Shown: positions 18,414-55,169 of the stretch, in pieces | Layout of the letters: each line of letters opens with the position of its first letter | Numbering within the stretch: the stretch's first letter is position 1 | Source: Patescibacteria group bacterium | GTDB lineage: Bacteria; Patescibacteriota; Patescibacteriia; JAHIZJ01 | Assembly (NCBI GenBank): GCA_028714495.1 | Contig: JAQTMH010000006.1 | Coordinates: forward strand, 1 to 55,169 | Length of the DNA stretch: 55,169 nt | Direction: 5' to 3' | The notes under the pieces: model-generated | Database searches by the model: none | Told to the model about the DNA's origin: nothing | What the model saw: only the letters and a program-made list of their open reading frames with translations | Position numbers and translations under genes: made by a program

Positions 18414-18432
18414 ATGAGAAGAGGGGCACTGT

Positions 18433-18472: not shown

Positions 18473-18506
18473 CTTATTCTATCGCGCGATTTTATTCTAG
18501 AAAATA

Positions 18507-18893: not shown

Positions 18894-18945
18894 CCCCTTT
18901 CAGATTTTTTTTAGCTGTTTAATTAAGAATTATTATAACAATGGC

Positions 18946-18974
18946 ATTGTACATCAAAAAAACAATTTTGTCAA
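18946..18974 (-). promoter_or_regulatory. Candidate promoter of pilin paralog 2
   Basis: On the minus strand: TTGACA - 17 nt - TACAAT. AAAGGGGTG Shine-Dalgarno sequence before the ATG. Confidence 0.55.
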
Positions 18975-18998
18975 ATCCACCTGAAATTATCAACCTGT

Positions 18999-19331: not shown

Positions 19332-19342
19332 AAGTATAAAAA

Positions 19343-20749
19343 TTATTCTTTGAGTTTTTCGTTCTGGTTAATCATTTTTTCGGCAGATTCCACCGCATCA
19401 CGAGCTTCAAACTCTTTGTTTACGACGCCGTCAATCATAATTTTGAAAACTTCCTCGACTTTTGTAAAGTCTCGGCCATGATACCACGAGACGCTAGTCA
19501 GAGCCTGGTTGATGAAAACCTCAACCTCAGGATCCTGCTCAGCCTGGATCGCCACTAATTCCCTAAGGGCCGAAGGGTTTTTAGTCGCGTTAAGATAACT
19601 GACCACGGCGTTTTTAGAAGTGGCATAGTACAAAAAGTCCCAAGCTTGGTTTACGTTTTCTGAATTGTTGTAAACAGACTCGACCCAATAGTTGGCATAA
19701 TTAGTCTGTTGGTTGAGGCTGACTTGAGGGAGCGGGGCAATATCGAAATTGAGATTTGGCGCGGTATCTTTAATCTGTGGTTGGTGGTAGGCGTAACCCA
19801 GGAAGTAGGCTAGCTGTCCCTGGGTGAAGGCTTCAAAGGCATCAGGCAGATCAGCGTTCCAAGAGTAGGCTTGTTTGGCCGGATTGGCCAAATCAGTGTA
19901 GAAAGTTAGGGCCTGGGCGCCGGGCAGGAAGCTATCCCCCTCATCATTTTTTGTGGACTTTGACAGGGTCGAGCGAAAAACGTTTTTTTCGCTCAGGGTA
20001 CCCATCGACGTACCGTTTTGAAGCATAAGAAGTGATAACAGGTCGGTGTAGCGCGGGATATTGTCGGAAGCGCCGAGAGCAATCGCCGCTTGCGTTAGCT
20101 CGCCCGCGTCATTTTCTTTTACTAACTTTGGTACCTGGGTCAATAATTCATTCCAGGTTTTAGGCGGCAAAGGGATAGAGGCCCGGTCGAGAATATCTCG
20201 GTTATAGTAAAGAACCAGGTTATCGAAGCCCAGCGGTAGGCCATAAATCTGCGCTTCTCCTTTGGCATCATAAAAAATCACGTCACTAGCCACGGCTGGG
20301 ACAAAGGCCGCGGCCAGACTTTTGGCAGTATAGGTTTTTACCTCGTCAACAACCTTTCGCTGCTCTTTCTTGAAACCGCAGGCTTTCTGGGTCACCAGCT
20401 TTGGGATTTCGAGAGTGGCCGGAAGCGCAGCGATAAAATCACGGTATTCGCCCACCCAGGAATTGGGAATCGAAAAAATATCCGGTCCCTCGCCTCTGGC
20501 CCAAGCAGCCAACAGCTCATTTTTGTATTCTTCATATCTTAGCTTCCGGTATTCAAATTCCACATTTGGGTGAGTGGAACGGTAGCTTTTTATGATCTCA
20601 GCCAAAGAATCTTCTTCATCCCAAACCCGCCAAATCTTCAGCTTGATCGGCTTGAGCGTCGCGTCCTCGCTGCCGCAGCTGGCTCCGAGCAATACGATCG
20701 AGCTGAGCAGGAGAATGATTAATGTTAAACGAAGTGGCCGATGACGCAT
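19343..20749 (-). CDS. Extracellular solute-binding protein (ABC family 1, sugar-type), probable lipoprotein
   Basis: Signal peptide with ...LLGASCGS. 468 aa. Sequence style resembles carbohydrate-binding SBPs. No permease or ATPase gene is adjacent. Confidence 0.7.
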   Translation of the reverse strand: MRHRPLRLTLIILLLSSIVLLGASCGSEDATLKPIKLKIWRVWDEEDSLAEIIKSYRSTHPNVEFEYRKLRYEEYKNELLAAWARGEGPDIFSIPNSWVGEYRDFIAALPATLEIPKLVTQKACGFKKEQRKVVDEVKTYTAKSLAAAFVPAVASDVIFYDAKGEAQIYGLPLGFDNLVLYYNRDILDRASIPLPPKTWNELLTQVPKLVKENDAGELTQAAIALGASDNIPRYTDLLSLLMLQNGTSMGTLSEKNVFRSTLSKSTKNDEGDSFLPGAQALTFYTDLANPAKQAYSWNADLPDAFEAFTQGQLAYFLGYAYHQPQIKDTAPNLNFDIAPLPQVSLNQQTNYANYWVESVYNNSENVNQAWDFLYYATSKNAVVSYLNATKNPSALRELVAIQAEQDPEVEVFINQALTSVSWYHGRDFTKVEEVFKIMIDGVVNKEFEARDAVESAEKMINQNEKLKE

Positions 20750-21630
20750 TACCTTATCTTTTTTAAATATTTCCTAAGTTCCGGACCGAGAGAGTCATGT
20801 TTCAGACCCTCGAAAATATTTGCCTTCAGCCAACCAAGCTTAGAGCCAAGGTCATAAATTGTCCCGGTAAATTCACAAGCGAAGATTGAGCGCTTTTTCA
20901 TCAGGGCGAGAACCGCGTCGGCCAACCAAATCTCACCGCCTTTGCCGCTCCGAGTTTTTTTGAGGACCGGGAAAATATCCGGAGTAAAAACATAGCCCTT
21001 GAGAACGGCTAAATTAGACGGTGCCTCGGCTAAAGAAGGTTTTTCAATAATCCCCAGGACCTCGTGGACATTGTTCTTGATGTGCTTGTTTTTGATAATG
21101 CCGTATTTAGTGATGTCGCCTCTAGGGACGGCCAGGACGCCGATAACCGGAGATTGGTATTCTTGATAAACATCAATCATTTGTTTGATGCAGAGTTTTT
21201 TCGAAACAATATAATCGTCTGTCCAAACCACTACAAATGGTTCTTGTCCCAGCACGCTTTCAGCTTGTAAGACAGCGTCGCCATTGCCCAAGGGACGAGT
21301 TTGCCTGATATAAATAAAATTGGCCAGCTCGGATACGCCGATAACTTCAGCCAGTTCTTTTGACTTTTTTGCTAACCTAAGGCGCATTTCCAGATCGGCA
21401 TTGCGGTCAAAATGGTCTTCAATGGCACGCTTGCTCTGGCCGGTGATAAGAATAATATCAGTAATGCCGGATCTTACAGCTTCTTCCACCGCGATTTGGA
21501 CAGCCGGCTTGTCTATTACTGGTAGCATTTCCTTTGGCTGAGCTTTTGTCGCCGGCAAAAACCTGGTGCCATAGCCAGCAACCGGGATTATTGCTTTTGT
21601 GATCTTTGTGTTTAAGCCAGAGCTTTTCAT
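20749..21630 (-). CDS. galU: UTP--glucose-1-phosphate uridylyltransferase
   Basis: KAIIPVAGYGTRFLPATKAQPKEMLPV N-terminal motif. ATG at 21630 is chosen because 21631-21707 holds a terminator and a TGnTATTAT extended -10. 1-nt TAATG overlap with the downstream SBP gene. Confidence 0.85.
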   Translation of the reverse strand: MKSSGLNTKITKAIIPVAGYGTRFLPATKAQPKEMLPVIDKPAVQIAVEEAVRSGITDIILITGQSKRAIEDHFDRNADLEMRLRLAKKSKELAEVIGVSELANFIYIRQTRPLGNGDAVLQAESVLGQEPFVVVWTDDYIVSKKLCIKQMIDVYQEYQSPVIGVLAVPRGDITKYGIIKNKHIKNNVHEVLGIIEKPSLAEAPSNLAVLKGYVFTPDIFPVLKKTRSGKGGEIWLADAVLALMKKRSIFACEFTGTIYDLGSKLGWLKANIFEGLKHDSLGPELRKYLKKIR

Positions 21631-21676
21631 AAGATTGTGTGTACGTGATAATACCATAAAATAGGAAAAAAGTAAA

Positions 21677-21707
21677 TAAAAAGCCAAAGGCGAGCTAAAC
21701 GCCCGCC
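21677..21707 (-). terminator. Intrinsic terminator after the SOD gene
   Basis: On the minus strand: GGCGGGC-GTTTA-GCTCGCC stem, then TTTGGCTTTTT. Confidence 0.5.
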
Positions 21708-21739
21708 GAATGGTTTATTGTCTGTATTATTGCCAATAA

Positions 21740-22318
21740 TTACTTAAGACGTCCCTGAACCGAACCCCAATCAATCGCCCTGAAAAATGCGGCAATATAA
21801 TCAGCTCGTTTCAACCCATAATCAAGCATAAAGGCATGTTCAAAGACGTCGATGACCAAAAGCGGCAGACAGCCGGTCAAATGGCCAACGTCGTGCTCGT
21901 TTATCCAGACATTGAAGGTTTTTTGAGCGATTGGGTCATAAGTCAGAATTACCCAGCCGATACCTCGCAGTGAGGCCGTGGCTTTGAAATCTTTTTCCCA
22001 GTCTTGAATCGTGCCGAAGTCTTTGATGATTTGTTTGGCCAACGGGGAATCCGCGTCAAGCGATTTGGGAGTTTTCGATAAATTGCTGAAGTACAATTCG
22101 TGGAGCCGTAGTCCGTTAAACTCCCAGCCAAACCGGCGCTTGGTTTCGGCAAATTCCGGGGTGGCGGTTCGGTCAGCGGCTAAAAGTTCGCGAAGCAGAT
22201 CAGAAAGTTTATTGGTGTTTGTGACGTAGCCTTGATAGAGGGTAAAATGGTTTTTTAACAAGGTCTCGCTAAAACCCTCAAGGCCCAGAAGATGAGAGAA
22301 ATCTTTTGGTTCGTACAT
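21740..22318 (-). CDS. Fe/Mn-family superoxide dismutase
   Basis: Metal-ligand contexts LKNHFTLYQGYV, LRLHELYF and DVFEHAFMLDY (the D-x-x-E-H-A motif). Confidence 0.8.
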   Translation of the reverse strand: MYEPKDFSHLLGLEGFSETLLKNHFTLYQGYVTNTNKLSDLLRELLAADRTATPEFAETKRRFGWEFNGLRLHELYFSNLSKTPKSLDADSPLAKQIIKDFGTIQDWEKDFKATASLRGIGWVILTYDPIAQKTFNVWINEHDVGHLTGCLPLLVIDVFEHAFMLDYGLKRADYIAAFFRAIDWGSVQGRLK

Positions 22319-22340
22319 AGTTGGGTATTAATTTGTTAAA

Positions 22341-23342
22341 TTAGGGCAGTCGGAGAATATCCCGGCCGCCGATATTAATATAGTTGTTGATAGTATTTTG
22401 AACTTCGTCAGCGTTTTTGCAGGCCATGAGCTTGACGCGGAGCGCCTTGGCGCCATTAAAACCCGAAGCGTAGGCCTTGAAATGCTTTTTCATAGTATCA
22501 AAGTTTTTCTGTCCGCGATAAAGTTTTTCAAAGAGCCTAGTATGCTCGGCCAAGACCAGCAGCCTTTCTTTCAGGGAAATGTCTTCAATATGCTTTTTGG
22601 CATTGAAAAACCAGGGATTGCCAAAAATAGCCCGGCCGACCATTATGCCGTCAACCCCAGTTTCTTCGGTTCGCAGCCTGGCCTGATCCAGTGACTGGAT
22701 GTCGCCATTGCCGACAATAAGTGTTCGACTTTTTAGTTGATTGCGAATTTTTACGGCCAGGGCGATTAAATTCCAATCCGCCCGCACTTTTGACATCTGC
22801 ATCCGGGTGCGGGCATGGATGGTGAGAACAGCCGGCTCGGTCTGGAGCAGGCCGGGCAGCCACTCTTCGAGGATGTTGGAATTATATCCGATGCGAGTTT
22901 TTATTGAGACTGGGAGCGGGCCGGCCCCGCGTTTTGCCGCCTTGATTATTTCCCAGGCCAGCTTCGGATTTTTCATCAGGGCTGCTCCGGCGCCCTGTTT
23001 TTCGACAGCCCTGTCCGGACAGCCCATGTTGATGTCCAGGCCGTCAAAACCCAGTTTACGGATGAGCCTAGTTGATTCGTAAAATTGTTCCGGTTCAGAG
23101 CCCCAAACCTGGGCCACAATTGGCCGCTCTTTTCTCGTGAAATACAGAGTTTTCGCCACTTTGTCCCGGTTGAGCGAGGCTAGGCCGGCCACGGAAACAA
23201 ACTCAGTGAAAAAAACATCGGGCTTGCCGTATTTGGCGATGATCTGCCGAAAAGCCGAGTCAGTGACATCGGACATCGGGGCCAGGCACATAATCGGTTT
23301 TTTGAGTTTTGACCAGAAGCCGAGAGTGGTTTTTTTAGGCAT
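22341..23342 (-). CDS. dus: tRNA-dihydrouridine synthase
   Basis: LAPMSDVTDSAFRQI, DINMGCP (catalytic Cys) and the TIM-barrel FMN pattern. Confidence 0.85.
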   Translation of the reverse strand: MPKKTTLGFWSKLKKPIMCLAPMSDVTDSAFRQIIAKYGKPDVFFTEFVSVAGLASLNRDKVAKTLYFTRKERPIVAQVWGSEPEQFYESTRLIRKLGFDGLDINMGCPDRAVEKQGAGAALMKNPKLAWEIIKAAKRGAGPLPVSIKTRIGYNSNILEEWLPGLLQTEPAVLTIHARTRMQMSKVRADWNLIALAVKIRNQLKSRTLIVGNGDIQSLDQARLRTEETGVDGIMVGRAIFGNPWFFNAKKHIEDISLKERLLVLAEHTRLFEKLYRGQKNFDTMKKHFKAYASGFNGAKALRVKLMACKNADEVQNTINNYINIGGRDILRLP

Positions 23343-31499: not shown

Positions 31500-31549
31500 T
31501 ATTTCGGCTGGTAAAATCCACTGTCCAGACATTGTAAAAGATAGAGATA

Positions 31550-31822
31550 GCTACTTTTCTTGTTCGCAAGAAAAGTAGCACAAAAGAACTCCCGCCCGTT
31601 CGATAAAAATGGACAAAAGACACCCTCGTCGGCCTGTCACGTTGCAAACTCCTCGCACGTAGGCGAAGATGACCATCTTCGCCTACGGCTCGTCAAACAG
31701 TGCAACGTTTCTCCGGATGTAAATCCGGACCGGCCTCCTCAGGGCTTTTGTCACATTTTTTCGAAAGGGGCGGCATGAGTCTCAATTGTTTTTCCAAACG
31801 CCGACTTCGCAATGGGCGGAAA
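31550..31822 (+). repeat. Hairpin-rich composite intergenic element, copy B (candidate structured RNA)
   Basis: Perfect 13-bp hairpin at 31550-31579 sharing the core CTTTTCTTG/CAAGAAAAG with copy A. Perfect 12-bp hairpin at 31659-31686 and a further hairpin at 31712-31729. Carries the conserved 78-nt 3' module at 31745-31822. Confidence 0.6.
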
Positions 31823-31891
31823 ATAGTTTATATTGATAGGTGTTTAAAATGGGGGTATCTTGATTCTCCATCCTAGTAATTAAGAAAAGAT

Positions 31892-31933
31892 GCCAGTCCC
31901 ATCGAATGATGGGGTCGGCGGTTTTTCATTTTT
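31892..31933 (+). terminator. Intrinsic terminator downstream of element B
   Basis: GCCAGTCCCATC-GAAT-GATGGGGTCGGC stem followed by GGTTTTTCATTTTT. Confidence 0.55.
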
Positions 31934-31981
31934 CATAAGAACCGCTCGGTCTTTTAGATCGAGTTTTCCACTTATTTCAAT

Positions 31982-32010
31982 TTGACCGCTGATATTTACG
32001 ATAGTATTCT
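31982..32010 (+). promoter_or_regulatory. Candidate promoter of the orphan 32.0-32.3 kb unit
   Basis: TTGACC - 17 nt - TATTCT. Confidence 0.35.
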
Positions 32011-32016
32011 AAGAGT

Positions 32017-32276
32017 AGTTCGTTGGATTCTTTTGACCGACGTCTGCATCAGGCGAGTTTCTCCAAAAGGAAAGGAAACGGCATGAAAGGCGGTCAGGGG
32101 ACGATCAGAGTAACCCAGGACGTACTCAGAAAAACACGGCATTTCAGCGGATGGGTCCACATTGATCCGGGGTACGCGCGGCTGATGCTTTGCCGTTTGA
32201 GATCCAGGGTTGCTCGTACAACCCGACCATGGGGAATCCAGATACCCGCGGCTAGGTACTAGAAACGCCTAGTCAC
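32017..32276 (+). other. Orphan G+C-rich transcription unit: either an unclassified sRNA or a 59-aa basic peptide gene (ATG 32083 to TAG 32262)
   Basis: Bracketed by a promoter-like site and a strong terminator. AAAGGAAAGGAAA lies upstream of the ATG at 32083. Possible long-range pairing of AAACGGCA (32076-32083) with TGCCGTTT (32201-32208). Confidence 0.35.
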
Positions 32277-32309
32277 CAGTTGAGGCAATCACCTCAACTG
32301 TTTTTCTTT
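32277..32309 (+). terminator. Strong plus-strand intrinsic terminator overlapping the stop codon of the convergent methyltransferase gene
   Basis: Perfect 9-bp stem CAGTTGAGG/CCTCAACTG with a 6-nt loop, followed by TTTTTCTTT. Confidence 0.7.
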
Positions 32310-46896: not shown

Positions 46897-47006
46897 AAAA
46901 ACTCTCCCGTCTCCGGCCTGCTAGAGACGGTTTTGGTGGGCTTTATTCAAAGTCCTTAAAAATTCTCAAATCGATACCCCAAAAAGGGGTGAAATGTCAT
47001 GAATTG

Positions 47007-47034
47007 ATAATAACACTATTTTCGGAGTTGTCAA
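47007..47034 (-). promoter_or_regulatory. Candidate promoter of rpoBC
   Basis: On the minus strand: TTGACA - 16 nt - TATTAT, about 105 nt upstream of the rpoB ATG. Confidence 0.45.
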
Positions 47035-47272
47035 GAATTACCTGAAATTAGCCAATAAATATTACTCATTTGGCTAATATTAGGCAAATAGTATATTATT
47101 TTCTCTAAAATAATAAATCAAACCAGATCTAATTGCCCAGAGGTTATAAACCCCTTATTGATAACTTATCCACAATGTTTTATTGATTTTTTGGTCAATT
47201 CAGCTCAGGAACATTCGACATCGGTTTATAAACCCAACACCTTGAAAGGTTCGGTCTTGTATATTTGTTACC

Positions 47273-50200
47273 CTATTGCTCTAAGCTATTCAGACGATTA
47301 GTCAGATTGTCAATCTCTTGTTGCTGTTTTTCAATCATCTGATTTTGCTCCTGGATGGCTTTTACCATCGGCGCTATAAGGTCATCATATCTGAGAGAAC
47401 GAGTTTGATTTTCATCATTTTCGATCGAAACCAAATTCACCTCATCAGGAGAAACTAACTTCTCAATGTCTTGGGCTATAAATCCATAGTCGGTTTTCCC
47501 ATTACCGTTGATCATTGAATACTGAACTGGCCGAAGTTTATTGATGAAACTGAGACCGAGTGCGCTATCCTGAATGTCTTTCTTTAGGCGAAGATCAGAG
47601 TCGGTTGACCATGCAACGTGGCCTCGAATCAGCGTGACACTGGCATTGCCGACTCTGACCATATCAGATTGGGTAGCTTGAGCCCCATTGCCGAGCGAAG
47701 TTGTATTCCAATAAGCCGCAGCATTCGGTCCTGCTTGATAACCTAGAGCCGTGTTCCAACTTCCCGACGTGTTCGTGATGAGTGCTTCATATCCGATGGC
47801 GGTATTCATGCTACCCGTAGTGGCAAAAGCAGCTTTATAACCAAGCGCGCTGTTTTCAGCATTTGTATTATTCATAAGAGCCTGAGCACCGACGGCAGTA
47901 TTGCCTGTGGTGTAGCCGGTATAAAATAGCGCACGATCACCTACGGCGGTATTACTACCACCAGTGGTGGCTTGCATCAGAGCGCGATACCCAAGGGCAG
48001 TGTTCTTAGTACCAGTAGTGTTGTTATTAAGGGAGCCTTCACCTACAGCAGTATTATCAGAACCCGTGGTGTTGTATTCGAGAGATGTGTATCCAATAGC
48101 AGTGTTCGCATCGTCTGTATTTAATTGAAGCGCCGCAAGGCCAACAGCGACGTTATATGATCCCGTGACACTCGATTTGAGGGCATACCGACCAATAGCC
48201 ACGTTTTGCCCTCCACCGTTATTAGACGTAAAAGCGTCATTCCCAAAAACCGTATTGGACTCGCTTGATGCTGGACCACGCCCCGCACGAATGCCATTGA
48301 TCATGATGTCCGCACCACTGAAGTATCCAGCCCAGGAATTAGTGCCAGTAGCTGAACCGTAGATACCGGCAACCGTTGCGCCGGTTCCGACAACGTTACT
48401 GGCGCTGCCATAGACACCGGCGCAGATTTGGCCAGCTGCGCAAGTTGCTCCGGTTGCTAGCTCGCCATAAACACCGCTGCCGGCGACGGCAGTGCCCATT
48501 TTGAAACCGGATAAAGCATTGTAGTTTGAAGTACTGTCATTATATGTGGCGATTGTGTGGTGTTGACTATAGCGATATGTTGAATTAGCCACCTGGAAAA
48601 GCGGAGCATCAGCAGTTGTAGAATCGTAGATGGTTGTTTCGCCTTGATCGGAGATGGACAAACGCCAGGCGCTTACTGCTTTATCATAGAGACCAAATCT
48701 TTCATCATATTGTAACTGTGTTTCTTTCCAGTTATTCGAACTGACCGCACCTAACTGCACGCTGGAATCGGCGTTTTCGGCAGAAGTGTCGTCAACCGAG
48801 ATTTTCAGCCAGGTATTCATATCCGCACCTTGTCGCGCAATATGAAGTGGTTGATCAGGCGCTATGGTACCGATACCGACTTTTTTCCCAGTATCTGTCG
48901 CGAGATAGGCGTTTCCTTCCGCGACCAAACCGTCATCGCCGACTGCCGGGACACCGCCGTTGGCGTAATCGCCGACGACGAAGCCGTTCGGGCTGTTAAA
49001 CAACATGAGTGAGCTATCGCGCGAGATAAGCTGGTCGTAAGCAGCTCCGGCGGCGCTATCATCAAAGTCTTTTAAGGTGAGATAGGCCGTGGCAAAAATA
49101 GATCCAGCCACGCCGAATTGAGATCCAGCTCCAGCGGTGAAACTCGGACTACCTACCCGGACTAAGCCGGCATCGTCGATCTTCAGCCCTTCGTCCGCAT
49201 CGCCATCATTCGTGATCCAATTTCCGTTCATTTTCAGCCGCTGGGTGGCCGTGTGATTGCCAAGGTTGTCAGCGCTTCCACCCGTGGCGCTGATTTGCAG
49301 GGTTTCATTAGCGCCATTATTTAATTCAGTCAGAGTAATATTTGAACCGGCAACCAGTTTGCCATTGAGATAACCAGCAGTGGTGTCATTAGAGCTGACT
49401 TTAACCAGTTCATCGGTGCCGGTGCCGCCAGCGGTTGCCCAGGTTAAATTTCCACTGCCGTCATTTTTCAGATAGGTATTGGCTCCACCCTGGCTAGCTG
49501 GCCAAACGTAGGAGATATTTTTAATTTTTATCAGATCGCCGCTGGAATTAACCTGAAACAAATCATTATTTCCCACAGTCAGCAGAGAAGCGGGGCTAGG
49601 GTCGCCGATGCCGACTTTGCCGTCATTGGTAATGCGAAATTTTTCGGTCAAATGAGGATCGGTGTCGCCGCCAGTATTGCCCTGACCAGTTGAGACTGTG
49701 AGCACACTAGTCATGCCTAGGTGGACGCCTCGCGATGGATTGCTGCCACCACCGTTATAAGCGCCGCTTGGATTAACGAACTCCCAAGCTGTCCCATTCC
49801 ACTTTATATTGCTGCCGTAGTAGGTATTGCCGCCGGAGTCAGTGCCGAGCTGAAGATAGGTGCTAATGCCAACCCGGCCGGAAAAATATCCGGCGTAACC
49901 AGCGGTGTTATTTTGTTGAGCGTAGAGAGCAGAAGATGTGGTGTTAGCATATGTGGCGATTGCATCACCAGCGCCGCCAGTTCCGCTCTGGTTGTTATTG
50001 ACCACTAATTTCCCCACTGGAGCTACTTGATTAACTCCGACATTGCCGCTAACAACCGTCAGACTGTCAGTCAAGGTTCCATTTACATCCGTGGCCAGGG
50101 TTAGTCTGGTGTCATCGTGCGTATCAGTCGTATACGAAGTAATCGAAGCCCGACCAATATCGTTTTCCGCGCCAGTCGCGCTGATTTCAAACAGCAAGCC

Positions 50201-52126
50201 AGTACCCATGCCTGTTCGGAGGTTTTCAAATGTGTCGCGATGAGTGAGCCTTAGGGGGTAGTCCACATCATTATTAACGGCGACTTCTTCCAGGACCGCG
50301 GTTTCCAGAAGATTTTGTGGAGCATCTGTGCCAATGCCGACATTGGCGTATTTATTGACCAGAAGAGTGGGTATGCTATCCCCAGCCTGGGCAAAAACCG
50401 AAAAGGTATCGCGGCCATGGGGGACGGTCAGATAAGCAGTGGCGCCTGTGCTCGGCCCCACGCTGGTATTGACTCTGACCCAGTAGCCACTTATGCCGTT
50501 AACATTAGTTGTTTGCCAGTTGGCTGGGAAGGTATAGGTAACCAACCCATCTTGGCTGAAATTGTTGGTCCCATCATTAACTGCGCTTAAAGACGTCCAA
50601 GAGCTACCATTCCAGTATCTGAAAGATAGGTTCATGCCAGCTCCGGCGGTGGCGAGATCGAAGAAGATTGAATTAAACGGAGCATTGGTTCGGCCAACAT
50701 AGAAATACCAATTGGTATTATTCAGCATGCCGTAGGGAACGCCCCCGCTAATTTTGGCTTCGGTCGCGTTGCTTAGATACGCGCTGCCGTTATAAGCAAA
50801 AACATAATCAAAAGCCTCATTTCTGACTGTCACAAACTGGTCAGCGCCGATTGAGCCGGTGCCTAAGAGCGCGGTTTTGCCGGAAAAGTATCCGCTAAAT
50901 CCATCCGGATCATTTTGTTCCGCATAGATGGCTGAATTATCAGAGCTGTTCTTCACTGCGAGCATGGTTGAATCACCCGTATTGCTCCAGCCGATTCTGA
51001 CCTTAGTTGAAGCTGACTGTAGAGGATAGATATGATCGCCGGCTGCGCCGTCCCAGAGCGAGTCGCCACCACCGCCCGTTGCGTCAATGCGTAGAGTTTC
51101 ATTCGCGCCATTGTTTAGCTCGGTCAGAGTAATATTTGTGCCAGCCACCAGTTTGCCATTGAGATAACCAGCAGTGGTGTCGTTTGAGCTGACTTTAACC
51201 AGTTCGTCGGTTCCGCCAGCGCCGCCTTGATCCGGTCCGCACAGGAGTTTCCCGCTGGCATCCGTGTCTAGAGTCGAATTGCCGGTACAGCCAACAACTC
51301 CAGGCAGGTAAACATCACCATTGGCGGCAACTCTGAATTTATTGGCCCCACTATCCTGGACTAAAAACTCACCCGCTCCATCAAGGTTGAAAGTCAGGTT
51401 ATTCGCTCCCTGGGTGATGGTGGTCGCTCGGTTTAAAGTTCCACCCAACTCAAAGATATTGCCATTTAAAGTTAAACCGTTGTTAGCCGTGTAGGTGGCG
51501 GTTTGCCAACTCTGAATACAGCTATCATTTAGACAGAGGTTAGCTGGCAGTCCGGCTTGGCCGATTCTGACATCCTGGCCAGCCCCTGGCACCAGCTCCC
51601 CATCATCGAAGTTCAAAAACAAGGGCACACCAATTGATTTGATATCCACTCCAGCGTCACTGGGCGCGGCTTTCACCTCCAGTTTTTTCCCATCCGGGCT
51701 GCCATTGTCAATCAGGATTGAGCCGTTATTAGCTCCGGCATTGGTGATTTTCACCTGACTGTAGAGTTCGAGTCGGCTATTGACCTCTTCACCTGGTGAA
51801 AGGTAGACGACATTACCCGCTTCTTCCAGGTGCGGTTTGGCGGGATCGTCAGAATCACTCCAAAAAATACCCCGGTCATCAGTACTGATAAGGACATTTC
51901 CACTGCTCACCTTGAAGGATTCTCCATCAATAGTCAGGCTTCCCAGCTTGGTTTGAGCCGCGCCCGAGACATTGATCGGGGCAGCCACATTGCCTCCTGG
52001 AGCCGCGTCCGTGGGATAGTTCCAGGCCGCCCTGGCCACCCTCAGCCCAATCAGGCTAAAGACACATAAAAAAGCCACCAGAAGAGTTAGTTTTGATAAC
52101 CTGGAGGCTTGGTTGTTTGATTTCAT
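47273..52126 (-). CDS. Giant secreted/anchored fibre-like protein with 14-residue head-type repeats and a C-terminal S74-type intramolecular chaperone domain
   Basis: N-terminal signal/TM (LTLLVAFLCVFSLIGLRVARA) and G/T/N/S-rich beta-type repeats. NTAIGY.AL..NTTG repeats at about 47640-48290. C-terminus DSDLRLKKDI...YGFIAQDIEKLVSPDE...LRYDDLIAPMVKAIQEQ plus a coiled coil. The ORF could also start at the TTG at 52135. Confidence 0.85.
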   Translation of the reverse strand: MKSNNQASRLSKLTLLVAFLCVFSLIGLRVARAAWNYPTDAAPGGNVAAPINVSGAAQTKLGSLTIDGESFKVSSGNVLISTDDRGIFWSDSDDPAKPHLEEAGNVVYLSPGEEVNSRLELYSQVKITNAGANNGSILIDNGSPDGKKLEVKAAPSDAGVDIKSIGVPLFLNFDDGELVPGAGQDVRIGQAGLPANLCLNDSCIQSWQTATYTANNGLTLNGNIFELGGTLNRATTITQGANNLTFNLDGAGEFLVQDSGANKFRVAANGDVYLPGVVGCTGNSTLDTDASGKLLCGPDQGGAGGTDELVKVSSNDTTAGYLNGKLVAGTNITLTELNNGANETLRIDATGGGGDSLWDGAAGDHIYPLQSASTKVRIGWSNTGDSTMLAVKNSSDNSAIYAEQNDPDGFSGYFSGKTALLGTGSIGADQFVTVRNEAFDYVFAYNGSAYLSNATEAKISGGVPYGMLNNTNWYFYVGRTNAPFNSIFFDLATAGAGMNLSFRYWNGSSWTSLSAVNDGTNNFSQDGLVTYTFPANWQTTNVNGISGYWVRVNTSVGPSTGATAYLTVPHGRDTFSVFAQAGDSIPTLLVNKYANVGIGTDAPQNLLETAVLEEVAVNNDVDYPLRLTHRDTFENLRTGMGTGLLFEISATGAENDIGRASITSYTTDTHDDTRLTLATDVNGTLTDSLTVVSGNVGVNQVAPVGKLVVNNNQSGTGGAGDAIATYANTTSSALYAQQNNTAGYAGYFSGRVGISTYLQLGTDSGGNTYYGSNIKWNGTAWEFVNPSGAYNGGGSNPSRGVHLGMTSVLTVSTGQGNTGGDTDPHLTEKFRITNDGKVGIGDPSPASLLTVGNNDLFQVNSSGDLIKIKNISYVWPASQGGANTYLKNDGSGNLTWATAGGTGTDELVKVSSNDTTAGYLNGKLVAGSNITLTELNNGANETLQISATGGSADNLGNHTATQRLKMNGNWITNDGDADEGLKIDDAGLVRVGSPSFTAGAGSQFGVAGSIFATAYLTLKDFDDSAAGAAYDQLISRDSSLMLFNSPNGFVVGDYANGGVPAVGDDGLVAEGNAYLATDTGKKVGIGTIAPDQPLHIARQGADMNTWLKISVDDTSAENADSSVQLGAVSSNNWKETQLQYDERFGLYDKAVSAWRLSISDQGETTIYDSTTADAPLFQVANSTYRYSQHHTIATYNDSTSNYNALSGFKMGTAVAGSGVYGELATGATCAAGQICAGVYGSASNVVGTGATVAGIYGSATGTNSWAGYFSGADIMINGIRAGRGPASSESNTVFGNDAFTSNNGGGQNVAIGRYALKSSVTGSYNVAVGLAALQLNTDDANTAIGYTSLEYNTTGSDNTAVGEGSLNNNTTGTKNTALGYRALMQATTGGSNTAVGDRALFYTGYTTGNTAVGAQALMNNTNAENSALGYKAAFATTGSMNTAIGYEALITNTSGSWNTALGYQAGPNAAAYWNTTSLGNGAQATQSDMVRVGNASVTLIRGHVAWSTDSDLRLKKDIQDSALGLSFINKLRPVQYSMINGNGKTDYGFIAQDIEKLVSPDEVNLVSIENDENQTRSLRYDDLIAPMVKAIQEQNQMIEKQQQEIDNLTNRLNSLEQ

Positions 52127-52173
52127 GGTATTCAAATATTAAGGATAATAATCTATGGTTGAAATTCGCCTTA

Positions 52174-52202
52174 ATTATAATGAAAAATCGAAGAAAATAC
52201 AA
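52174..52202 (-). promoter_or_regulatory. Candidate promoter of giant gene 1
   Basis: On the minus strand: TTGTAT - 17 nt - TATAAT. Confidence 0.35.
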
Positions 52203-52235
52203 AAAACCAGACCGGCTTGGATCCGGTCTTGGTTT
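52201..52235 (-). terminator. Intrinsic terminator after giant gene 2
   Basis: On the minus strand: ACCAAGACCGG-ATCCAAG-CCGGTCTGGT stem followed by TTTTTTGTATTTT. Confidence 0.6.
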
Positions 52236-52257
52236 ATAATAAGTTGTTACAAAGATT

Positions 52258-55169
52258 TTATAAGTCGCAACAGATAATATCAGTCAGACGGTCTAACTCA
52301 TCACCAGTACCACTATCCCAGAACTTCACCCCGCACACGTATTTACCCTCCGAACACATTACCGTAGTCCCATCTGGTTGGCCGGGCATGCTTATTACTT
52401 CGGACGCTCCATGAACATTGCCTTGTACTCCCAGATCTCCATACGAAAAAACACCATATCGGGTACCAGTGCCAGCGCCAGCTTTTCCGTAAACACCATA
52501 GCTGTATTCGCCAGCATCAGTCGGGCCAGCCTCACCCCAGACACCAACAGTGGTTCCGGTAGAACCAGTCGCTCCGCCTTTGCCCCAAACGCCAGCTGAA
52601 CGCCCCTGCTGGGCCGTAATGTCTCGTCCAATACCAGCCACACCGTAACTTCCGCGATTAGTAGTGGTGGTCGAACCGCCCACACCCAAAATACCAACGC
52701 CGGTATTGGAGGTTGATTCATTGATTGCTCGAAGTGTGCTTAGTGAATTCCAGGATGGCTCGAGAGTGGAAAAGCGGCCATACCCGCTGAAACTACCGGC
52801 ATATCCGCCTGCGTTATTCTGCTGGGCATAGAGGGTTGAATTAGTAGTATTAGCATAAACAGCAATCGCATCACCAACGCTGCCGGTTCCTGATTGGTCT
52901 TTATTAACGACGAATCTTCCCACTGGAGCTGTTTGGCTGATTCCGACATTGCCATCCTTGTCTATTCTCATATTCTCGTAGACATTTCCATCAACACCAT
53001 TTAGAAACTTGGTTATCGCCTTACCGCCCGCAGCGATTTCAAAATTGATTGCTCCACGCAGCGTGCCAGGATCGGCTCCGTCGTAGAATGAGTACTGAGC
53101 CTGGTCGGCCACAGCATCAGCAGTATTGCGCAGGCGGATGTTCGGACCGATAGCTCCACTAGCGCTTTTATTTATCTGTAATTGACTGGTTGGAGCATTC
53201 GTTCCGATGCCCACATTGCCAGTGTCTTGCTTCAGGTACATGATTGGATCAATAGTGCTCGAGGATATCTTCAAATCACGAGTTGGAGTATAGAGATTGT
53301 TTATTCCGCCATAAGCGCCAAGGGTTAGATATATTTCAGGAGAGCTGGGTGAACCAAGGTTTATCTGTGGGCCGGTACCTATACCCGCGAAGTCTAGCTG
53401 AACCGCGTAAGTTCCATTATCAGCCCGGACATTTCCTCCAATATGCAGTTTTTCTAATGGGTCTGATTTGCCGATTCCGACATTGCCGTCTGTTTTAACA
53501 AATACCCCCTCATCACCGCCGTCATTTGAAACCCAGAAGCCGCTCATCTTCAAGTTCTGCGTGGCCGTGTGATTGCCAAGGTTGTCAGCGCTTCCACCCG
53601 TGGCGCTGATTTGCAGGGTTTCATTAGCGCCATTATTTAATTCAGTCAGAGTAATATTTGAACCGGCAACCAGTTTGCCATTGAGATAACCAGCAGTCGT
53701 GTCATTGGCGCTTACTTTGGCAAGTTCATCGGTGACAGCTTGGCATGTTACGGTACCGTTCGCATTAATCACCCTGATTGCTTGTCCAGCTGCGCAATCA
53801 CTGAAGAATTTGGTTGAGCCGTCACCTTTGAAGATACTAGTAGCGATCGCGACACTGCCATTGACATCAAGGGTGGCATCAGGCGTTTCATCGTTGATAG
53901 CCAGCCGACCGTTTTGTAAATATAGAGTAGTGGTATTAGCTGAGCCAGTCTCATAGATTTGAAGGCGAGGGATGTTGTCTTCCCAATAGATTCCAGCTTG
54001 CTCACCGGGGGCAGTGTTAAAGGTAATAGCTGATTGACTTGAGGCTGGAGTTTTTAAGGTAAGATAGCTGATACCAGTGCCGCTTTCAATCAGCATTGGG
54101 GTGTCGCCAGAGTTGTAGAGATGGAGTTTATCAGTCGGGCTGGCTGTGCCGATACCGACATTGCCTGCCGTATCAATCACCAGCCGGTCTTTTTCCAATT
54201 CAGTTCCACCCGCACTGTTGTCCTTGAAGACCAATTTACCCTGACCCTCGCCCGCATCACCGCCGGCTGCGATGAGCGACCACATACGACCACCAGCTAG
54301 ACCAGTAGAGTCAAGGCGCGCATCACTGCCCCAGGTCTGACCGCCATAGACATGCAGTCGCGACACAGGATTAGCGAAGCCGATGCCGACTTTTGTGCTG
54401 GCCGGAGTTTTTGGATTTATGGCAACCCCCTGGGTTCCTTCCCAAAGTGATTCGCCGCCCGTGACAGTGGCCCAAGTTAAATTCCCGCTGCCGTTATTTC
54501 TCAGGTAGGTATTAGCCGCCCCTTGAGCCGCTGGCCAAACATAGGAGACGTTTTTAATCTTTACAAGATCGCCGATAGAATTGACCTGAAATAAATCATT
54601 GGTGCCAACGGTCAGCAAAGATACTGGGCTGGTATCGCCAATTCCGACATTACCCGCAGTGTCAATAGTTAAGCGGGCCATAGTTTGCGGATCTCCGCCA
54701 GCATCAACATCTCGTATGATGAATTTACCGATTCCATAATCAACTGCCGATCCTGACCCGGTGGATATGATATCCCATCTTCGGCCGTCAACTCCAGATT
54801 CCCGGGCGTTGAGAGCGATGTCCGCGCCGGCAGAATGTCCAGCGTCAGCATAGACTTCCAGTTTTGAGAGGGCCTGGACAGTGGTTGAACCAACCAAGAC
54901 GCTGATTGAGGAAGTGGGATGAAGCGTGACGCCAGTTATATCCCAGTGGCTGGTTCCACTGCCCGTGGCATCTGCTCCGCACTGAAGCTTGCCGCCAGTA
55001 CCAGTATCTAGCGTTTGCGCTCCACTACAATTTGGTAAAGCCGGCAGGTAAACATCACCATTGGCGGCAACTCTGAATTTATTGGCCCCACTATCCTGGA
55101 CTAAAAACTCACCCGCTCCATCAAGGTTGAAAGTCAGGTTATTCGCTCCCTGGGTGATGGTGGTCGCTC
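52258..55169 (-). CDS. Second giant fibre-like surface protein (paralog), 5' end outside the window, with a Cys-containing C-terminal tip instead of the S74 domain
   Basis: The frame stays open upstream of the listed TTG at 54897 to the window edge; I translated ...NGDVYLPALPNCSGAQTLDTGTGGKLQCGADATGSGTSHWDITGVTLHPTSSISVLVGSTTV. Shares modules and identical DNA blocks with 47273-52126. Ends ...VMCSEGKYVCGVKFWDSGTGDELDRLTDIICCDL. Confidence 0.8.
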   Translation of the reverse strand, partial: ATTITQGANNLTFNLDGAGEFLVQDSGANKFRVAANGDVYLPALPNCSGAQTLDTGTGGKLQCGADATGSGTSHWDITGVTLHPTSSISVLVGSTTVQALSKLEVYADAGHSAGADIALNARESGVDGRRWDIISTGSGSAVDYGIGKFIIRDVDAGGDPQTMARLTIDTAGNVGIGDTSPVSLLTVGTNDLFQVNSIGDLVKIKNVSYVWPAAQGAANTYLRNNGSGNLTWATVTGGESLWEGTQGVAINPKTPASTKVGIGFANPVSRLHVYGGQTWGSDARLDSTGLAGGRMWSLIAAGGDAGEGQGKLVFKDNSAGGTELEKDRLVIDTAGNVGIGTASPTDKLHLYNSGDTPMLIESGTGISYLTLKTPASSQSAITFNTAPGEQAGIYWEDNIPRLQIYETGSANTTTLYLQNGRLAINDETPDATLDVNGSVAIATSIFKGDGSTKFFSDCAAGQAIRVINANGTVTCQAVTDELAKVSANDTTAGYLNGKLVAGSNITLTELNNGANETLQISATGGSADNLGNHTATQNLKMSGFWVSNDGGDEGVFVKTDGNVGIGKSDPLEKLHIGGNVRADNGTYAVQLDFAGIGTGPQINLGSPSSPEIYLTLGAYGGINNLYTPTRDLKISSSTIDPIMYLKQDTGNVGIGTNAPTSQLQINKSASGAIGPNIRLRNTADAVADQAQYSFYDGADPGTLRGAINFEIAAGGKAITKFLNGVDGNVYENMRIDKDGNVGISQTAPVGRFVVNKDQSGTGSVGDAIAVYANTTNSTLYAQQNNAGGYAGSFSGYGRFSTLEPSWNSLSTLRAINESTSNTGVGILGVGGSTTTTNRGSYGVAGIGRDITAQQGRSAGVWGKGGATGSTGTTVGVWGEAGPTDAGEYSYGVYGKAGAGTGTRYGVFSYGDLGVQGNVHGASEVISMPGQPDGTTVMCSEGKYVCGVKFWDSGTGDELDRLTDIICCDL

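What the first reader, a model, noticed from the sequence alone, without database searches (positions are those of the whole stretch)
47273..55169. Tandem giant fibre-like surface protein genes beside rpoBC, built from shared modules with different C-terminal tips
Two adjacent minus-strand genes encode G/T/N/S-rich repeat proteins; each has its own promoter-like site, and an intrinsic terminator follows gene 2. Gene 1 is about 1617 aa. Gene 2 is more than 969 aa and is truncated by the window edge. They share recognisable modules: DEL[VA]KVS.NDTTAGYLNGKLVAG.NITLTELNNGANETL, LLTVG.NDLFQVNS.GDL.KIKN.SYVWPA.QG.ANTYL.N.GSGNLTWAT, and G[VI][YW]G glycine-rich runs.

Gene 1 ends in YadA-head-like 14-residue repeats plus a tail-fibre chaperone domain. 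Gene 2 ends in a short Cys-containing tip. This is the architecture of interchangeable receptor-binding fibres, yet the visible neighbours are core genes (rpoB/rpoC) and no phage structural genes appear. In a putative episymbiotic small-genome bacterium, such fibres are candidates for host-cell attachment.
Basis: partly seen in the sequence, partly recalled or inferred. Interest (0 to 1): 0.8.

Follow-up and report, generated by a model that had tools for sequence, protein, structure and literature searches.

The report
Phage-like adhesion fibres in a Patescibacterium
Two neighbouring giant genes next to rpoB encode secreted fibre proteins built like phage tail fibres and like the prey-recognition fibres of Bdellovibrio, so they are good candidates for how an ultrasmall symbiotic bacterium grips its host cell.

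Summary
Gene 1 (47273-52126, minus strand, 1617 aa) and gene 2 (52258 to the contig end, more than 969 aa) are real tandem paralogs. They share patches at 72-100% nucleotide identity.

Gene 1 has a Sec-type signal peptide and a conserved N-terminal domain. Its shaft carries four "GNVGIGTxxPxxxL" capping loops. It ends in eleven 16-17-residue repeats (not 14) and a Peptidase_S74 chaperone with SDLRLK. Gene 2 has six capping loops and a Cys-rich tip that is not S74.

A profile of gene 2's shaft hits only the Bdellovibrio "mosaic adhesive trimer" (MAT) fibre structures in the PDB (8OND, E=1.6e-30). Its AlphaFold model matches those same structures first, then the phage T5 fibre.

Five related Patescibacteria genomes (rpoB 82-85% identical) carry arrays of 2 to at least 5 such genes between a Mur-ligase gene and rpoB. 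N-termini are conserved and tips differ. No phage genes are present. The N-domain is absent from 2.9 million viral contigs, whereas the shaft modules are common there.

Verdict: these are chromosomal MAT-like adhesin fibres, a lineage variant not described in the literature I could search. Surface display, trimerisation and host binding are inferred. The window is the whole contig, and it breaks inside a 127-nt exact repeat, so gene 2's 5' end and promoter are unseen.

The parts
47273..52126 (-). Gene 1: complete 1617-aa fibre protein of S74 type
   Evidence: ORF and translation. In the protein database it is a singleton cluster carrying PF13884.
52028..52126 (-). Gene 1 signal peptide, aa 1-33 (MKSNNQASRLSK / LTLLVAFLCVFSLIGL / RVARA|AW)
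   Evidence: Read from the sequence: basic n-region, hydrophobic core and an A-x-A site. No signal-peptide predictor was available. The same layout occurs in all paralogs.
51506..52027 (-). Conserved N-terminal domain, aa 34-207: W..P...PGGNVAAPINVS...QTK.G.LT ... FW ... PH ... LY.SPG ... DIKS ... CLNDSCIQSW
   Evidence: Alignments A1 and A3. A profile of its first 62 positions finds 6937 cluster representatives, almost always directly after a signal peptide. No relative in viral contigs. The AlphaFold model is all-beta but of low confidence (pLDDT 54).
51302..51427 (-). Module A (ATTITQGANNLTFNLDGAGEFLVQDSGANKFRVAANGDVYLP), gene 1 copy
   Evidence: Its DNA is 100% identical to the last 127 nt of the contig.
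51092..51208 (-). DTTAGYL module, gene 1 copy 1 (aa 307-345)
   Evidence: This is the module most widely shared with other proteins. Viral contigs carry it at up to 90% identity.
50351..50878 (-). Insert unique to gene 1 (aa 417-592), probably a globular side domain
   Evidence: No homolog among the fibre relatives. Residues 465-554 match residues 526-618 of 'orf18' in the Legionella phage LME-1 portal-tail complex, PDB 9EFK, E=5.6e-9.
48845..50344 (-). Gene 1 shaft with four capping-loop motifs (50306-50344, 50006-50044, 49580-49618, 48845-48883), the YVWP module (49433-49585) and DTTAGYL copy 2 (49298-49414)
   Evidence: Motif scan. The motifs fit the MAT capping-loop consensus V-G-G/N-pi-x-x-P-x-x-x-L (PMC10769870).
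47708..48256 (-). Eleven repeats of 16-17 residues, consensus ..NTA.G..AL..NTTG.. (aa 1291-1473), forming the distal shaft of the mature gene 1 fibre
   Evidence: Repeat positions. PHROG tail spike phrog_4636 at 6.5e-49, plus virion structural protein families.
47276..47599 (-). Peptidase_S74 intramolecular chaperone with SDLRLK (S1510, K1515) and a C-terminal coiled coil
   Evidence: Pfam PF13884, 5.1e-11, 43.1 bits against a cut-off of 22. Motif located.
52127..52257 (-). Intergenic region: terminator hairpin 52229..52209 with T-run after gene 2, then TATAAT at 52179..52174, 48 nt before the gene 1 ATG
52258..55169 (-). Gene 2: fibre protein of non-S74 type, 3' 969 codons; the 5' end is missing at the contig end
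   Evidence: Open frame to the edge. 369 relatives at E<=1e-5.
52912..54651 (-). Gene 2 shaft: six capping loops (54613-54651, 54355-54393, 54124-54162, 53446-53484, 53179-53217, 52912-52950), YVWP module (54466-54618) and DTTAGYL module (53614-53730)
   Evidence: A profile of aa 540-969 hits only Bdellovibrio MAT structures in the PDB, with 8OND at 1.6e-30. The AlphaFold model has pLDDT 57-91 over aa 540-760. Its best Foldseek matches are Bd2133, Bd3182, Bd1334, Bd2439 and then T5 pb1.
52261..52593 (-). Gene 2 distal end: G[VI][YW]G glycine-rich run, then a four-Cys tip (...MCSEGKYVCGVKFWDSGTGDELDRLTDIICCDL)
   Evidence: The only relative found is the C-terminus of the 1588-aa gene in locus L004 (57% identity over 175 aa). 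No hit by PDB sequence, JGI metagenome scan or the protein database.
55043..55169 (-). Terminal 127 nt of the contig, an exact repeat of 51303-51429
   Evidence: It marks where the assembly broke.

Best explanation
The locus is part of a chromosomal array of secreted fibre adhesins in a Patescibacterium (CPR). The fibres are built on the plan of the Bdellovibrio mosaic adhesive trimer (MAT) fibres and of phage tail fibres.

Proposed mechanism:
1. Each protein is exported by a Sec signal peptide (shown for gene 1 from sequence features).
2. A conserved, lineage-specific N-terminal domain holds it at the cell envelope (inferred).
3. The chain then forms a long intertwined trimeric beta-helical shaft. 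The shaft is made of ~80-90-residue units, each capped by a GNVGIGTxxPxxxL loop. Homology to solved MAT trimers is shown; the trimer state itself is inferred.
4. Short modules that also circulate in phage tail fibres are interspersed in the shaft.
5. Gene 1 is folded and trimerised by its C-terminal S74 chaperone, which then cuts itself off at Ser1510. The motif is present; cleavage is inferred. This leaves the 16-17-residue-repeat beta-structure as the distal end.
6. Gene 2 ends instead in a small disulfide-rich knob.
7. The distal parts bind surface glycans or proteins of the host bacterium (inferred).
8. New specificities arise by recombination between the tandem paralogs and with phage fibre genes, at a fixed hotspot between a Mur-ligase gene and rpoB. 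The mosaic identity pattern and the variable array content are shown; the process is inferred.
For: - Architecture: signal peptide, conserved N-domain, 4 and 6 capping loops, S74 with SDLRLK in gene 1 and a non-S74 tip in gene 2.
- Homology to MAT: phmmer with gene 2 hits Bd2133 (8OND, 9.4e-7). The shaft profile hits only the five Bdellovibrio MAT structure sequences: 8OND 1.6e-30, 8OML 5e-16, 8OJN 1.8e-12, 8OL4 1.8e-8, 8ON4 7e-8.
- Fold: the top 15 Foldseek PDB hits are MAT fibres and T5 pb1, with TM normalised to target of 0.52-0.63 for the Bd3182 beta-helix. There are 192 BFVD hits to tail-fibre and S74 proteins.
- The MAT definition and capping-loop consensus come from PMC10769870.
- Chromosomal and conserved position: L001-3, L004/6, L007, L034 and L035/36 show LytR, (S8), Mur ligase, 2 to at least 5 giant genes, then rpoB. 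rpoB is 82-85% identical, while the fibres match only in mosaic at 30-50%.
- Constant N-terminus with variable tips: in L035 the first 370-620 nt of the array genes are 78-92% identical, and all C-termini differ.
- The cell-specific anchor is separate from the phage-shared shaft: the N-domain has 0 relatives in IMG/VR, whereas the YVWP plus DTTAGYL modules have 73 viral loci at up to 90% identity.
- The rest of the window holds housekeeping genes only.
Against: - No experiment or expression data exist.
- Surface location rests on a signal peptide judged by eye.
- Trimerisation, S74 self-cleavage and ligand binding are all inferred by homology.
- The N-domain model was poor (pLDDT 54). Its relation to the Bdellovibrio MAT N-domain could not be tested.
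- The tip of gene 2 was modelled at pLDDT below 50 and has no characterised relative.
- S74-bearing phage proteins are often glycan-degrading enzymes, so the fibres may cut rather than merely bind.
- Patescibacteria are monoderm-like, so anchoring must differ from that in Bdellovibrio.
- The host, and the episymbiotic lifestyle of this particular organism, are assumed from its phylum.
Confidence: 0.7

Rival explanations
1. The proteins are surface-mounted glycan depolymerases (tailspike-like enzymes) rather than adhesins. They would cut host capsule, exopolysaccharide or wall polymers to expose the host surface or to free nutrients.
For: S74 chaperones classically mature endosialidases and tailspikes (PMC10769870). 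PHROG 'tail spike protein' is the best family hit for gene 1's C-terminus (6.5e-49). A neighbouring array member in L001 carries Beta_helix, NosD and He_PIG domains.
Against: No glycoside hydrolase or lyase family is detected in either protein. The closest solved relatives, the MAT fibres, are described as adhesins, one with a bound glycan. Binding and cutting are not mutually exclusive.
Confidence: 0.15
2. The genes are remnants or cargo of a prophage, tailocin or contractile injection system: tail fibres that happen to lie near rpoB.
For: PHROG tail-fibre and tail-spike hits. Shaft modules are shared with viral contigs at up to 90% identity. NCBI labels a relative as 'tail fiber domain-containing protein'.
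Against: Gene 1 and all full-length paralogs carry Sec signal peptides, which virion fibres lack. No capsid, portal, terminase, tail, baseplate or integrase gene occurs in 55 kb or in the 10-kb flanks of five syntenic genomes. The position is conserved across genomes whose rpoB differs by 15-18%. The N-domain is absent from 2.9 million viral contigs.
Confidence: 0.04
3. The fibres are envelope or matrix structural elements (an S-layer-like coat, cell-cell or biofilm fibrils, or a phage decoy) with no role in recognising a host.
For: The N-terminal motif family is very large (6937 cluster representatives) and includes many small proteins (median 282 aa), which suggests a general surface-display system. 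Placement next to core, highly expressed operons (rpoBC here, the S10 operon in L037) fits abundant structural proteins.
Against: Fast divergence and tip swapping between close relatives while rpoB stays 82-85% identical is the signature of a recognition interface, not of a structural coat. The nearest characterised relatives recognise prey.
Confidence: 0.08
4. The tandem arrangement is an assembly artefact: two strain variants of one gene joined through a shared repeat.
For: The contig ends in a 127-nt exact repeat of an internal segment. From my own knowledge, that length is a common maximum k-mer in de Bruijn assemblers.
Against: The junction from gene 2's stop through the terminator and promoter to gene 1's start (52126-52258) is unique sequence inside the contig. 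Outside the short patches the two genes are only 30-40% identical. Tandem arrays of 2 to at least 5 such genes occur at the same place in five independently assembled genomes.
Confidence: 0.03

Closest known systems
Bdellovibrio bacteriovorus mosaic adhesive trimer (MAT) fibres (Bd2133, Bd3182, Bd1334, Bd2439; Caulton et al. 2024, PMC10769870)
   Same: Both have a signal peptide, then a conserved N-terminal domain, then a long shaft of beta-helix units with V-G-G/N-pi-x-x-P-x-x-x-L capping loops. Both end either in an S74 chaperone with SDxxxK or in an unrelated tip. Both occur as many paralogs per genome with swapped tips. Profile match is E=1.6e-30 and they are the best fold matches.
   Different: The organism is a Patescibacterium, a phylum not in that paper's list of MAT-bearing lineages. 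The N-terminal domain (W..P...PPGGNVAAPIN...QTK.G.L) belongs to a Patescibacteria-wide family, and its homology to the Bdellovibrio N-domain is untested. The genes form a tandem array at a fixed site next to rpoB. The shaft contains extra phage-type modules (DTTAGYL, YVWP). Gene 2's Cys-rich tip matches none of the described tip folds.
Phage tail fibres and tailspikes matured by an S74 intramolecular chaperone (T5 pb1 L-shaped fibre, K1F endosialidase)
   Same: Same C-terminal S74 domain with a Ser-Lys dyad motif. The shaft fold matches T5 pb1 (4UW7) and 192 viral tail-fibre or S74 proteins. Short modules are shared at up to 90% identity.
   Different: These proteins are cellular and carry a Sec signal and a non-viral N-terminal domain in place of a tail-attachment domain. 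There is no virion gene context.
Trimeric autotransporter adhesins (YadA family)
   Same: Both are long, repetitive, probably trimeric surface fibres with short Gly/Asn-rich beta repeats. A few relatives carry a precomputed YadA_head hit (PF05658; P0008, P0149).
   Different: There is no YadA_head or YadA_anchor hit in either protein. The repeat period is 16-17 residues, not 14. There is no C-terminal beta-barrel anchor: the C-terminus is an S74 chaperone or a Cys knob, and attachment would be N-terminal.

Membership tests
MAT (mosaic adhesive trimer) superfamily | N-terminal Sec signal peptide | tested here: met
   Gene 1 has MKSNNQASRLSK, then a 16-residue hydrophobic core, then RVARA|AW. 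All full-length paralogs have the same layout. This was judged from sequence, as no predictor was available. Gene 2's N-terminus is missing.
MAT (mosaic adhesive trimer) superfamily | [quoted passage not shown] | tested here: inconclusive
   A conserved N-domain of ~130-175 aa exists among the Patescibacterial paralogs (A1 and A3). It is predicted all-beta, but at pLDDT 54. No Bdellovibrio N-domain sequence or structure was available, so homology to it could not be tested.
MAT (mosaic adhesive trimer) superfamily | Beta-helical fibre shaft with capping loops V-G-G/N-pi-x-x-P-x-x-x-L | tested here: met
   There are 4 loops in gene 1 and 6 in gene 2. The shaft profile hits Bd2133 at 1.6e-30 and four other MAT structures, and nothing else in the PDB. 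The top Foldseek hits are MAT fibres.
MAT (mosaic adhesive trimer) superfamily | C-terminus is either an S74 chaperone with SDxxxK or a diverse non-S74 tip | tested here: met
   Gene 1 has PF13884 at 43.1 bits with SDLRLK. Gene 2 has no S74 and ends in a Cys-rich tip.
MAT (mosaic adhesive trimer) superfamily | Homotrimer displayed on the cell surface that binds target-cell epitopes | not testable with these tools
   Only monomer prediction was available, and there are no experimental data.
Peptidase S74 intramolecular chaperone proteins | Pfam PF13884 above the gathering score, with the Ser/Lys catalytic motif | tested here: met
   43.1 bits against a cut-off of 22. S1510-D-L-R-L-K1515. Self-cleavage was not tested.
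Virion tail fibre of a prophage or tailocin | Encoded within a block of tail, baseplate or capsid genes, with no secretion signal | tested here: not met
   No phage structural gene occurs in the window or in five syntenic loci. A signal peptide is present. The N-domain is absent from IMG/VR.
YadA-type trimeric autotransporter adhesin | YadA_head 14-residue repeats and a C-terminal YadA_anchor beta-barrel | tested here: not met
   Neither Pfam family hits at E<=0.1. The repeat period is 16-17. The C-terminus is S74.

The most novel reading that the evidence does not exclude
The conserved mature N-terminus (small-x-small | W/F..P...PPGGNV.APIN.S...Q.K.G.L) may be a Patescibacteria-wide, so far uncurated, surface-display or docking signal.

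- It heads at least 6937 protein clusters, ranging from 64-aa fragments and ~150-aa knobs to 1600-aa fibres.
- It is absent from viral contigs.
- In several genomes the small members sit inside type IV pilus loci next to PilB and PilC, and twice next to a dedicated S26 signal peptidase.

If the motif docks interchangeable tips onto one common envelope or pilus structure, the rpoB-linked giant fibres would be the long-reach members of a modular host-recognition system used across the Candidate Phyla Radiation.
Probability: 0.25. Interest if true: 0.85.

Novelty: new variant of a known kind. Interest (0 to 1): 0.62.

Why it matters
How ultrasmall Patescibacteria find and hold their host cells is largely unknown. 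A 2024 preprint states this outright, and so far it implicates only type IV pili (bioRxiv 10.1101/2024.11.25.624915).

This locus offers concrete candidate host-recognition proteins with a solved structural precedent, the Bdellovibrio MAT fibres. It has a defined variable hotspot (Mur ligase to rpoB) that could be tracked in metagenomes to link symbiont strains to hosts. It also has tips that can be expressed and screened on glycan arrays or on candidate host cells.

It extends the MAT fibre idea from predators with an outer membrane to a monoderm-like episymbiont phylum. It shows the same trade in shaft modules with phages. It also exposes a very large family of secreted proteins defined by an N-terminal motif that no Pfam or NCBIfam model matched in the members I scanned (six against NCBIfam, several fibre paralogs against Pfam).

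Tried and rejected
- Exact-protein look-up of gene 1 and rpoB to recover a longer contig: nothing on record.
- A wobble-tolerant DNA pattern from gene 2's unique 5' part in the metagenome contigs: no match.
- A scan of JGI metagenomes with the two-sequence alignment of gene 2's tip: 175 pattern matches, none confirmed.
- Together these mean the region beyond 55169 could only be inferred from synteny.
- NCBIfam: no hit for either fibre or for the four other N-motif proteins scanned, three small and one of 796 aa.
- Pfam: nothing for gene 2 or for relatives P0003, P0004 and P0055. The precomputed PF26696 seen in Flavobacteriales relatives is not in the local Pfam copy, so I could not identify it.
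- PDB sequence search: no hit for full gene 1, for gene 1's C-terminal 350 aa or for gene 2's tip.
- AlphaFold on the N-domain with 13 sequences gave pLDDT 54. I did not run a fold search on it because the matches would be meaningless.
- In the second model, gene 2's tip was below pLDDT 50, so no fold is claimed for it.
- Literature searches for Patescibacteria or CPR together with tail fibre, S74 or surface fibres found no description of such proteins. The library holds open-access papers only.
- YadA-type adhesin was considered and rejected (see membership test).
- A diversity-generating retroelement as the source of variation was considered. No reverse transcriptase is present in the window.
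Full report
**1. What is in the sequence**

The minus strand of 47273-55169 holds two long reading frames.

Gene 1 runs from an ATG at 52126 to a stop at 47273 and encodes 1617 aa. The ORF lister starts three codons earlier, at a TTG.

Gene 2 ends at 52258 and its frame stays open for 969 codons to the window edge.

The window is the whole contig. The protein database records gene 1 and gene 2 as singletons on a contig of exactly 55169 nt. The last 127 nt (55043-55169) are 100% identical to 51303-51429 inside gene 1, so the assembly stopped inside a repeat shared by the two genes. From my own knowledge, 127 is a common maximum k-mer for de Bruijn assemblers.

The junction between the genes is unique sequence inside the contig. 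It comprises gene 2's stop, a hairpin plus T-run at 52229..52209, a perfect TATAAT at 52179..52174 and gene 1's ATG. The tandem order is therefore assembled, not guessed. Gene 2's 5' end and promoter are not visible.

**2. The shared modules are real and patchy**

BLASTP between the two proteins gives several separate segments (E 2e-30 to 8e-21) in different orders. At DNA level the shared patches are 100%, 89%, 81%, 78% and 72% identical, and sequence that does not align separates them. This mosaic pattern is what recombination between paralogs produces.

**3. Anatomy of gene 1**

- A Sec-type signal peptide (aa 1-33, ending ARA|AW).
- A conserved N-terminal domain (aa 34-207). It starts W..P...PGGNVAAPINVS...QTK.G.LT and closes with a CLNDSCIQSW loop.
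- Module A.
- A DTTAGYL module.
- A 175-aa insert unique to this protein.
- A shaft with four GNVGIGTxxPxxxL-type loops, a YVWP module and a second DTTAGYL module.
- A glycine-rich GVYG run.
- Eleven repeats with a period of 16-17 residues (aa 1291-1473).
- A Peptidase_S74 domain (43.1 bits, cut-off 22) carrying SDLRLK, followed by a coiled coil.

The repeats are not 14 residues long, and Pfam YadA_head does not hit. PHROG families for tail spike (6.5e-49), virion structural protein and tail fibre cover aa 1225-1615.

Part of the unique insert (aa 465-554) matches residues 526-618 of 'orf18' in PDB 9EFK at E=5.6e-9. That entry is the portal-tail complex of Legionella phage LME-1. Six chains of 818 aa fit the hexameric nozzle protein; that assignment is my inference.

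**4. Anatomy of gene 2 (visible part)**

The visible part runs through module A, six capping loops, the YVWP and DTTAGYL modules, a GVWG/GVYG run, and a short tip with four cysteines. There is no S74 domain.

**5. Fold and family**

Gene 2 alone hits PDB 8OND (Bd2133, 9.4e-7) and 8OJN.

I built a 33-sequence alignment of gene 2 aa 540-969 with homologous segments (A4). Searched against all PDB sequences as a profile, it hits five sequences and nothing else. All five are Bdellovibrio bacteriovorus fibre structures: 8OND 1.6e-30, 8OML 5.3e-16, 8OJN/8ONB/8ONC 1.8e-12, 8OL4/8ONF 1.8e-8 and 8ON4 7.1e-8.

AlphaFold on the same alignment gave pLDDT 57-91 for aa 540-760 and below 50 for the tip. Foldseek against the PDB ranks Bd2133, Bd3182 (TM normalised to target 0.52-0.63), Bd1334 and Bd2439 first. 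The phage T5 L-shaped fibre pb1 comes next, followed by the T4 gp34 and Mu fibres at weaker scores. Against predicted viral structures there are 192 matches at E<=1e-3. The named ones are mostly tail-fibre-like proteins or proteins with an S74 chaperone domain.

[quoted passage not shown] Its features are a signal peptide, a conserved ~130-aa beta-rich N-domain, a meandering trimeric beta-helix with capping loops of consensus V-G-G/N-pi-x-x-P-x-x-x-L, and either an S74 domain with SDxxxK or a different tip. They are surface displayed, and one member binds a prey glycan.

The ten loops in genes 1 and 2 fit that consensus.

**6. Chromosomal, at a conserved hotspot**

Everything else in the window is housekeeping:

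- the C-terminus of the DNA polymerase III beta subunit, PBP1a, TyrRS;
- glycogen genes, RuvC, YebC, PGI, PAP2;
- three T4SS pilin paralogs, a solute-binding protein, SOD, Dus;
- NifU, a class-V aminotransferase (cysteine-desulfurase type), Rrf2, SHMT, FolD, YchF;
- a methyltransferase, S6, SSB, EF-P, RecA, a RodZ-like protein, FtsK, rpoC and rpoB.

Contigs encoding the closest relatives show the same neighbourhood:

| Locus | Gene order |
|---|---|
| L001-3 | LytR_cpsA_psr, S8 peptidase/FG-GAP, Mur ligase, 362-aa, 1311-aa, 1414-aa (S74), 1245-aa, rpoB, rpoC |
| L004 | LytR_cpsA_psr, S8 peptidase, Mur ligase, 1588-aa, 1469-aa, rpoB, rpoC, FtsK, RodZ-like |
| L007 | 1389-aa, rpoB |
| L034 | LytR_cpsA_psr, S8 peptidase, Mur ligase, 1148-aa, 1396-aa, 202-aa, rpoB |
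| L035/L036 | LytR_cpsA_psr, Mur ligase, at least five giant genes |

rpoB is 82-85% identical between the window and these genomes, yet the fibre proteins match only in mosaic at 30-50%. None of these flanks contains a phage gene. This answers by synteny what probably lies beyond 55169: more fibre genes, then Mur ligase, and not a prophage.

**7. Constant base, variable tip**

All full-length array members share the signal peptide and N-domain. In L035 the first 370-620 nt of four array genes are 78-92% identical, while every C-terminus differs.

The rpoB-proximal gene ends in S74 here. In L004 and L007 it ends in a Cys-rich "WCQECRCYVGDSP" tip, and in L001 in another Cys-containing tip. The S74 gene is second from rpoB in L001. 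Gene 2's tip recurs on the distal gene of L004 at 57% identity over 175 aa.

Two closely related genomes (L035 and L036) differ in the fourth gene: 1500 aa in one, against an N-terminally truncated 1011 aa in the other.

**8. Cell-specific anchor, phage-shared shaft**

The N-domain alignment finds no relative in 2.9 million IMG/VR contigs. A 108-aa stretch holding the YVWP and DTTAGYL modules finds 73 viral loci at up to 90% identity.

Among the protein hits to gene 1, those that match only through the DTTAGYL module include proteins that lack both a signal peptide and the N-motif. One carries nine copies of the module. A hit to gene 2 includes a cyanophage "cell surface protein".

In 185,579 species genomes the N-domain patterns recover 28 loci. 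Those with an informative label are Patescibacteria lineages: Kaiser-, Taylor-, Yonath-, Taga-, Nealson- and Kerfeldbacteria, Paceibacteria, and MAGs labelled Saccharibacteria. Four are labelled only "bacterium" or "uncultured bacterium". Two carry automatic labels of other phyla (Gammaproteobacteria for L006, Hyphomicrobiales for L023), which I take to be mislabels. L006 is the same contig as L004.

A 62-position profile of the mature N-terminus finds 6937 cluster representatives (1143 at E<=1e-10) among 1.84 billion. The motif almost always begins around residue 36, after a small-x-small site. Median protein length among the top hits is 282 aa. No Pfam or NCBIfam model matched this N-terminal region in the members I scanned.

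**9. Most likely mechanism**

These are Sec-exported fibres held at the envelope by the conserved N-terminal domain. They extend as trimeric beta-helical shafts, and their distal ends recognise the host.

- Gene 1 would be folded by its S74 chaperone and then self-cleaved at S1510.
- Gene 2 would be capped by a disulfide knob.
- Diversification would come from recombination among the tandem paralogs and with phage fibre genes.

Shown here: architecture, homology, fold class of the shaft, synteny, the mosaic pattern, and the separation of the N-domain from the viral gene pool. Inferred: surface display, trimer state, autoproteolysis, ligand, and role in episymbiosis.

**10. Comparison with what is known, and novelty**

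The closest known system is the MAT superfamily. Three of its sequence-level defining features are met. The homology of the N-domain is untested, and the biology cannot be tested here.

The MAT paper lists members from predators and some FCB-group and Omnitrophica bacteria, but no Patescibacteria. My literature searches found no description of tail-fibre-like adhesins in CPR bacteria. GenBank's automatic name for one relative is "tail fiber domain-containing protein".

I rate this a new variant of a known kind. It is a MAT-like fibre with a phylum-specific N-terminal module, organised as a hypervariable array at a fixed site beside rpoB.

**11. Limits**

- Gene 2 is incomplete.
- No signal-peptide predictor or multimer prediction was available.
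- The N-domain and tip models were poor.
- Attempts to extend the contig failed.
- The link between small N-motif proteins and type IV pilus loci rests on a handful of loci without a background estimate.

Noticed in passing
window 31500-32293: A ~790-nt stretch with no ORF of 100 aa or more lies between ychF and a methyltransferase gene. It has no Rfam hit at gathering score or at E<=1, and no tRNA or tmRNA. Its predicted RNA fold is far more stable than shuffles: + strand -303 kcal/mol, z=-10.4; - strand z=-6.9. It is a candidate large structured RNA of unknown family.
   Followed up: partly
N-terminus of gene 1 (window 51845-52030) and loci L008-L033, L037, L039: The mature N-terminal motif (small-x-small | W..P...PPGGNV.APIN.S...Q.K.G.L) heads at least 6937 protein clusters of 64-1617 aa, seemingly confined to Patescibacteria. 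No Pfam or NCBIfam model matched it in the members I scanned.
   Followed up: partly
L039:1-12621; also L014, L017, L025, L027, L029: Small N-motif proteins sit in type IV pilus loci. L039 has four paralogs plus a Peptidase_S26 signal peptidase between PilB and PilC/pilin. PilB or PilC lies within ~7 kb in L014, L025, L027 and L029. An S26 gene directly follows the N-motif gene in L017. No background rate was estimated.
   Followed up: partly
L037:4640-8092 (Yonathbacteria-type contig): A cluster is inserted inside the otherwise canonical S10 ribosomal-protein operon, between rplB and rpsS. It holds a small N-motif protein (272 aa), two unknown proteins and a PaaX_M-domain protein. Like the rpoB-linked array, this places a surface-protein gene inside a core, highly expressed operon.
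   Followed up: no
window 17958-19331 (-): Three tandem paralogs of T4SS_pilin (PF18895; 132, 128 and 110 aa). They are of the kind discussed for the Patescibacterial type IV secretion system (PMC12102498, listed).
   Followed up: no
window 50351-50878 (gene 1 aa 417-592): An insert unique to gene 1 matches a ~90-residue domain of 'orf18' in the Legionella phage LME-1 portal-tail complex (PDB 9EFK, E=5.6e-9). That is another phage-derived module, here on the side of a cellular fibre.
   Followed up: partly
L035 vs L036, positions 17700-22500: Two closely related genomes differ within the fibre array. The fourth gene is 1500 aa with a normal N-terminus in one. In the other it is 1011 aa without signal peptide or N-domain, preceded by two small opposite-strand ORFs. 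This may be decay or rearrangement at strain level.
   Followed up: no
window 46900-47040 (-): A near-consensus promoter (TTGACA-16-TATTAT with an extended TG, 47034..47007) lies upstream of rpoB. It is followed by a terminator-like hairpin (46930..46907) that ends about 10 nt before the rpoB start codon. This could be a leader or attenuator for rpoBC, transcribed independently of the fibre genes.
   Followed up: no
window 6372-12951 (-): Glycogen-type genes are duplicated in one block: two starch-synthase-like GT5 genes and two GH57 genes, with an APH-family kinase between them.
   Followed up: no
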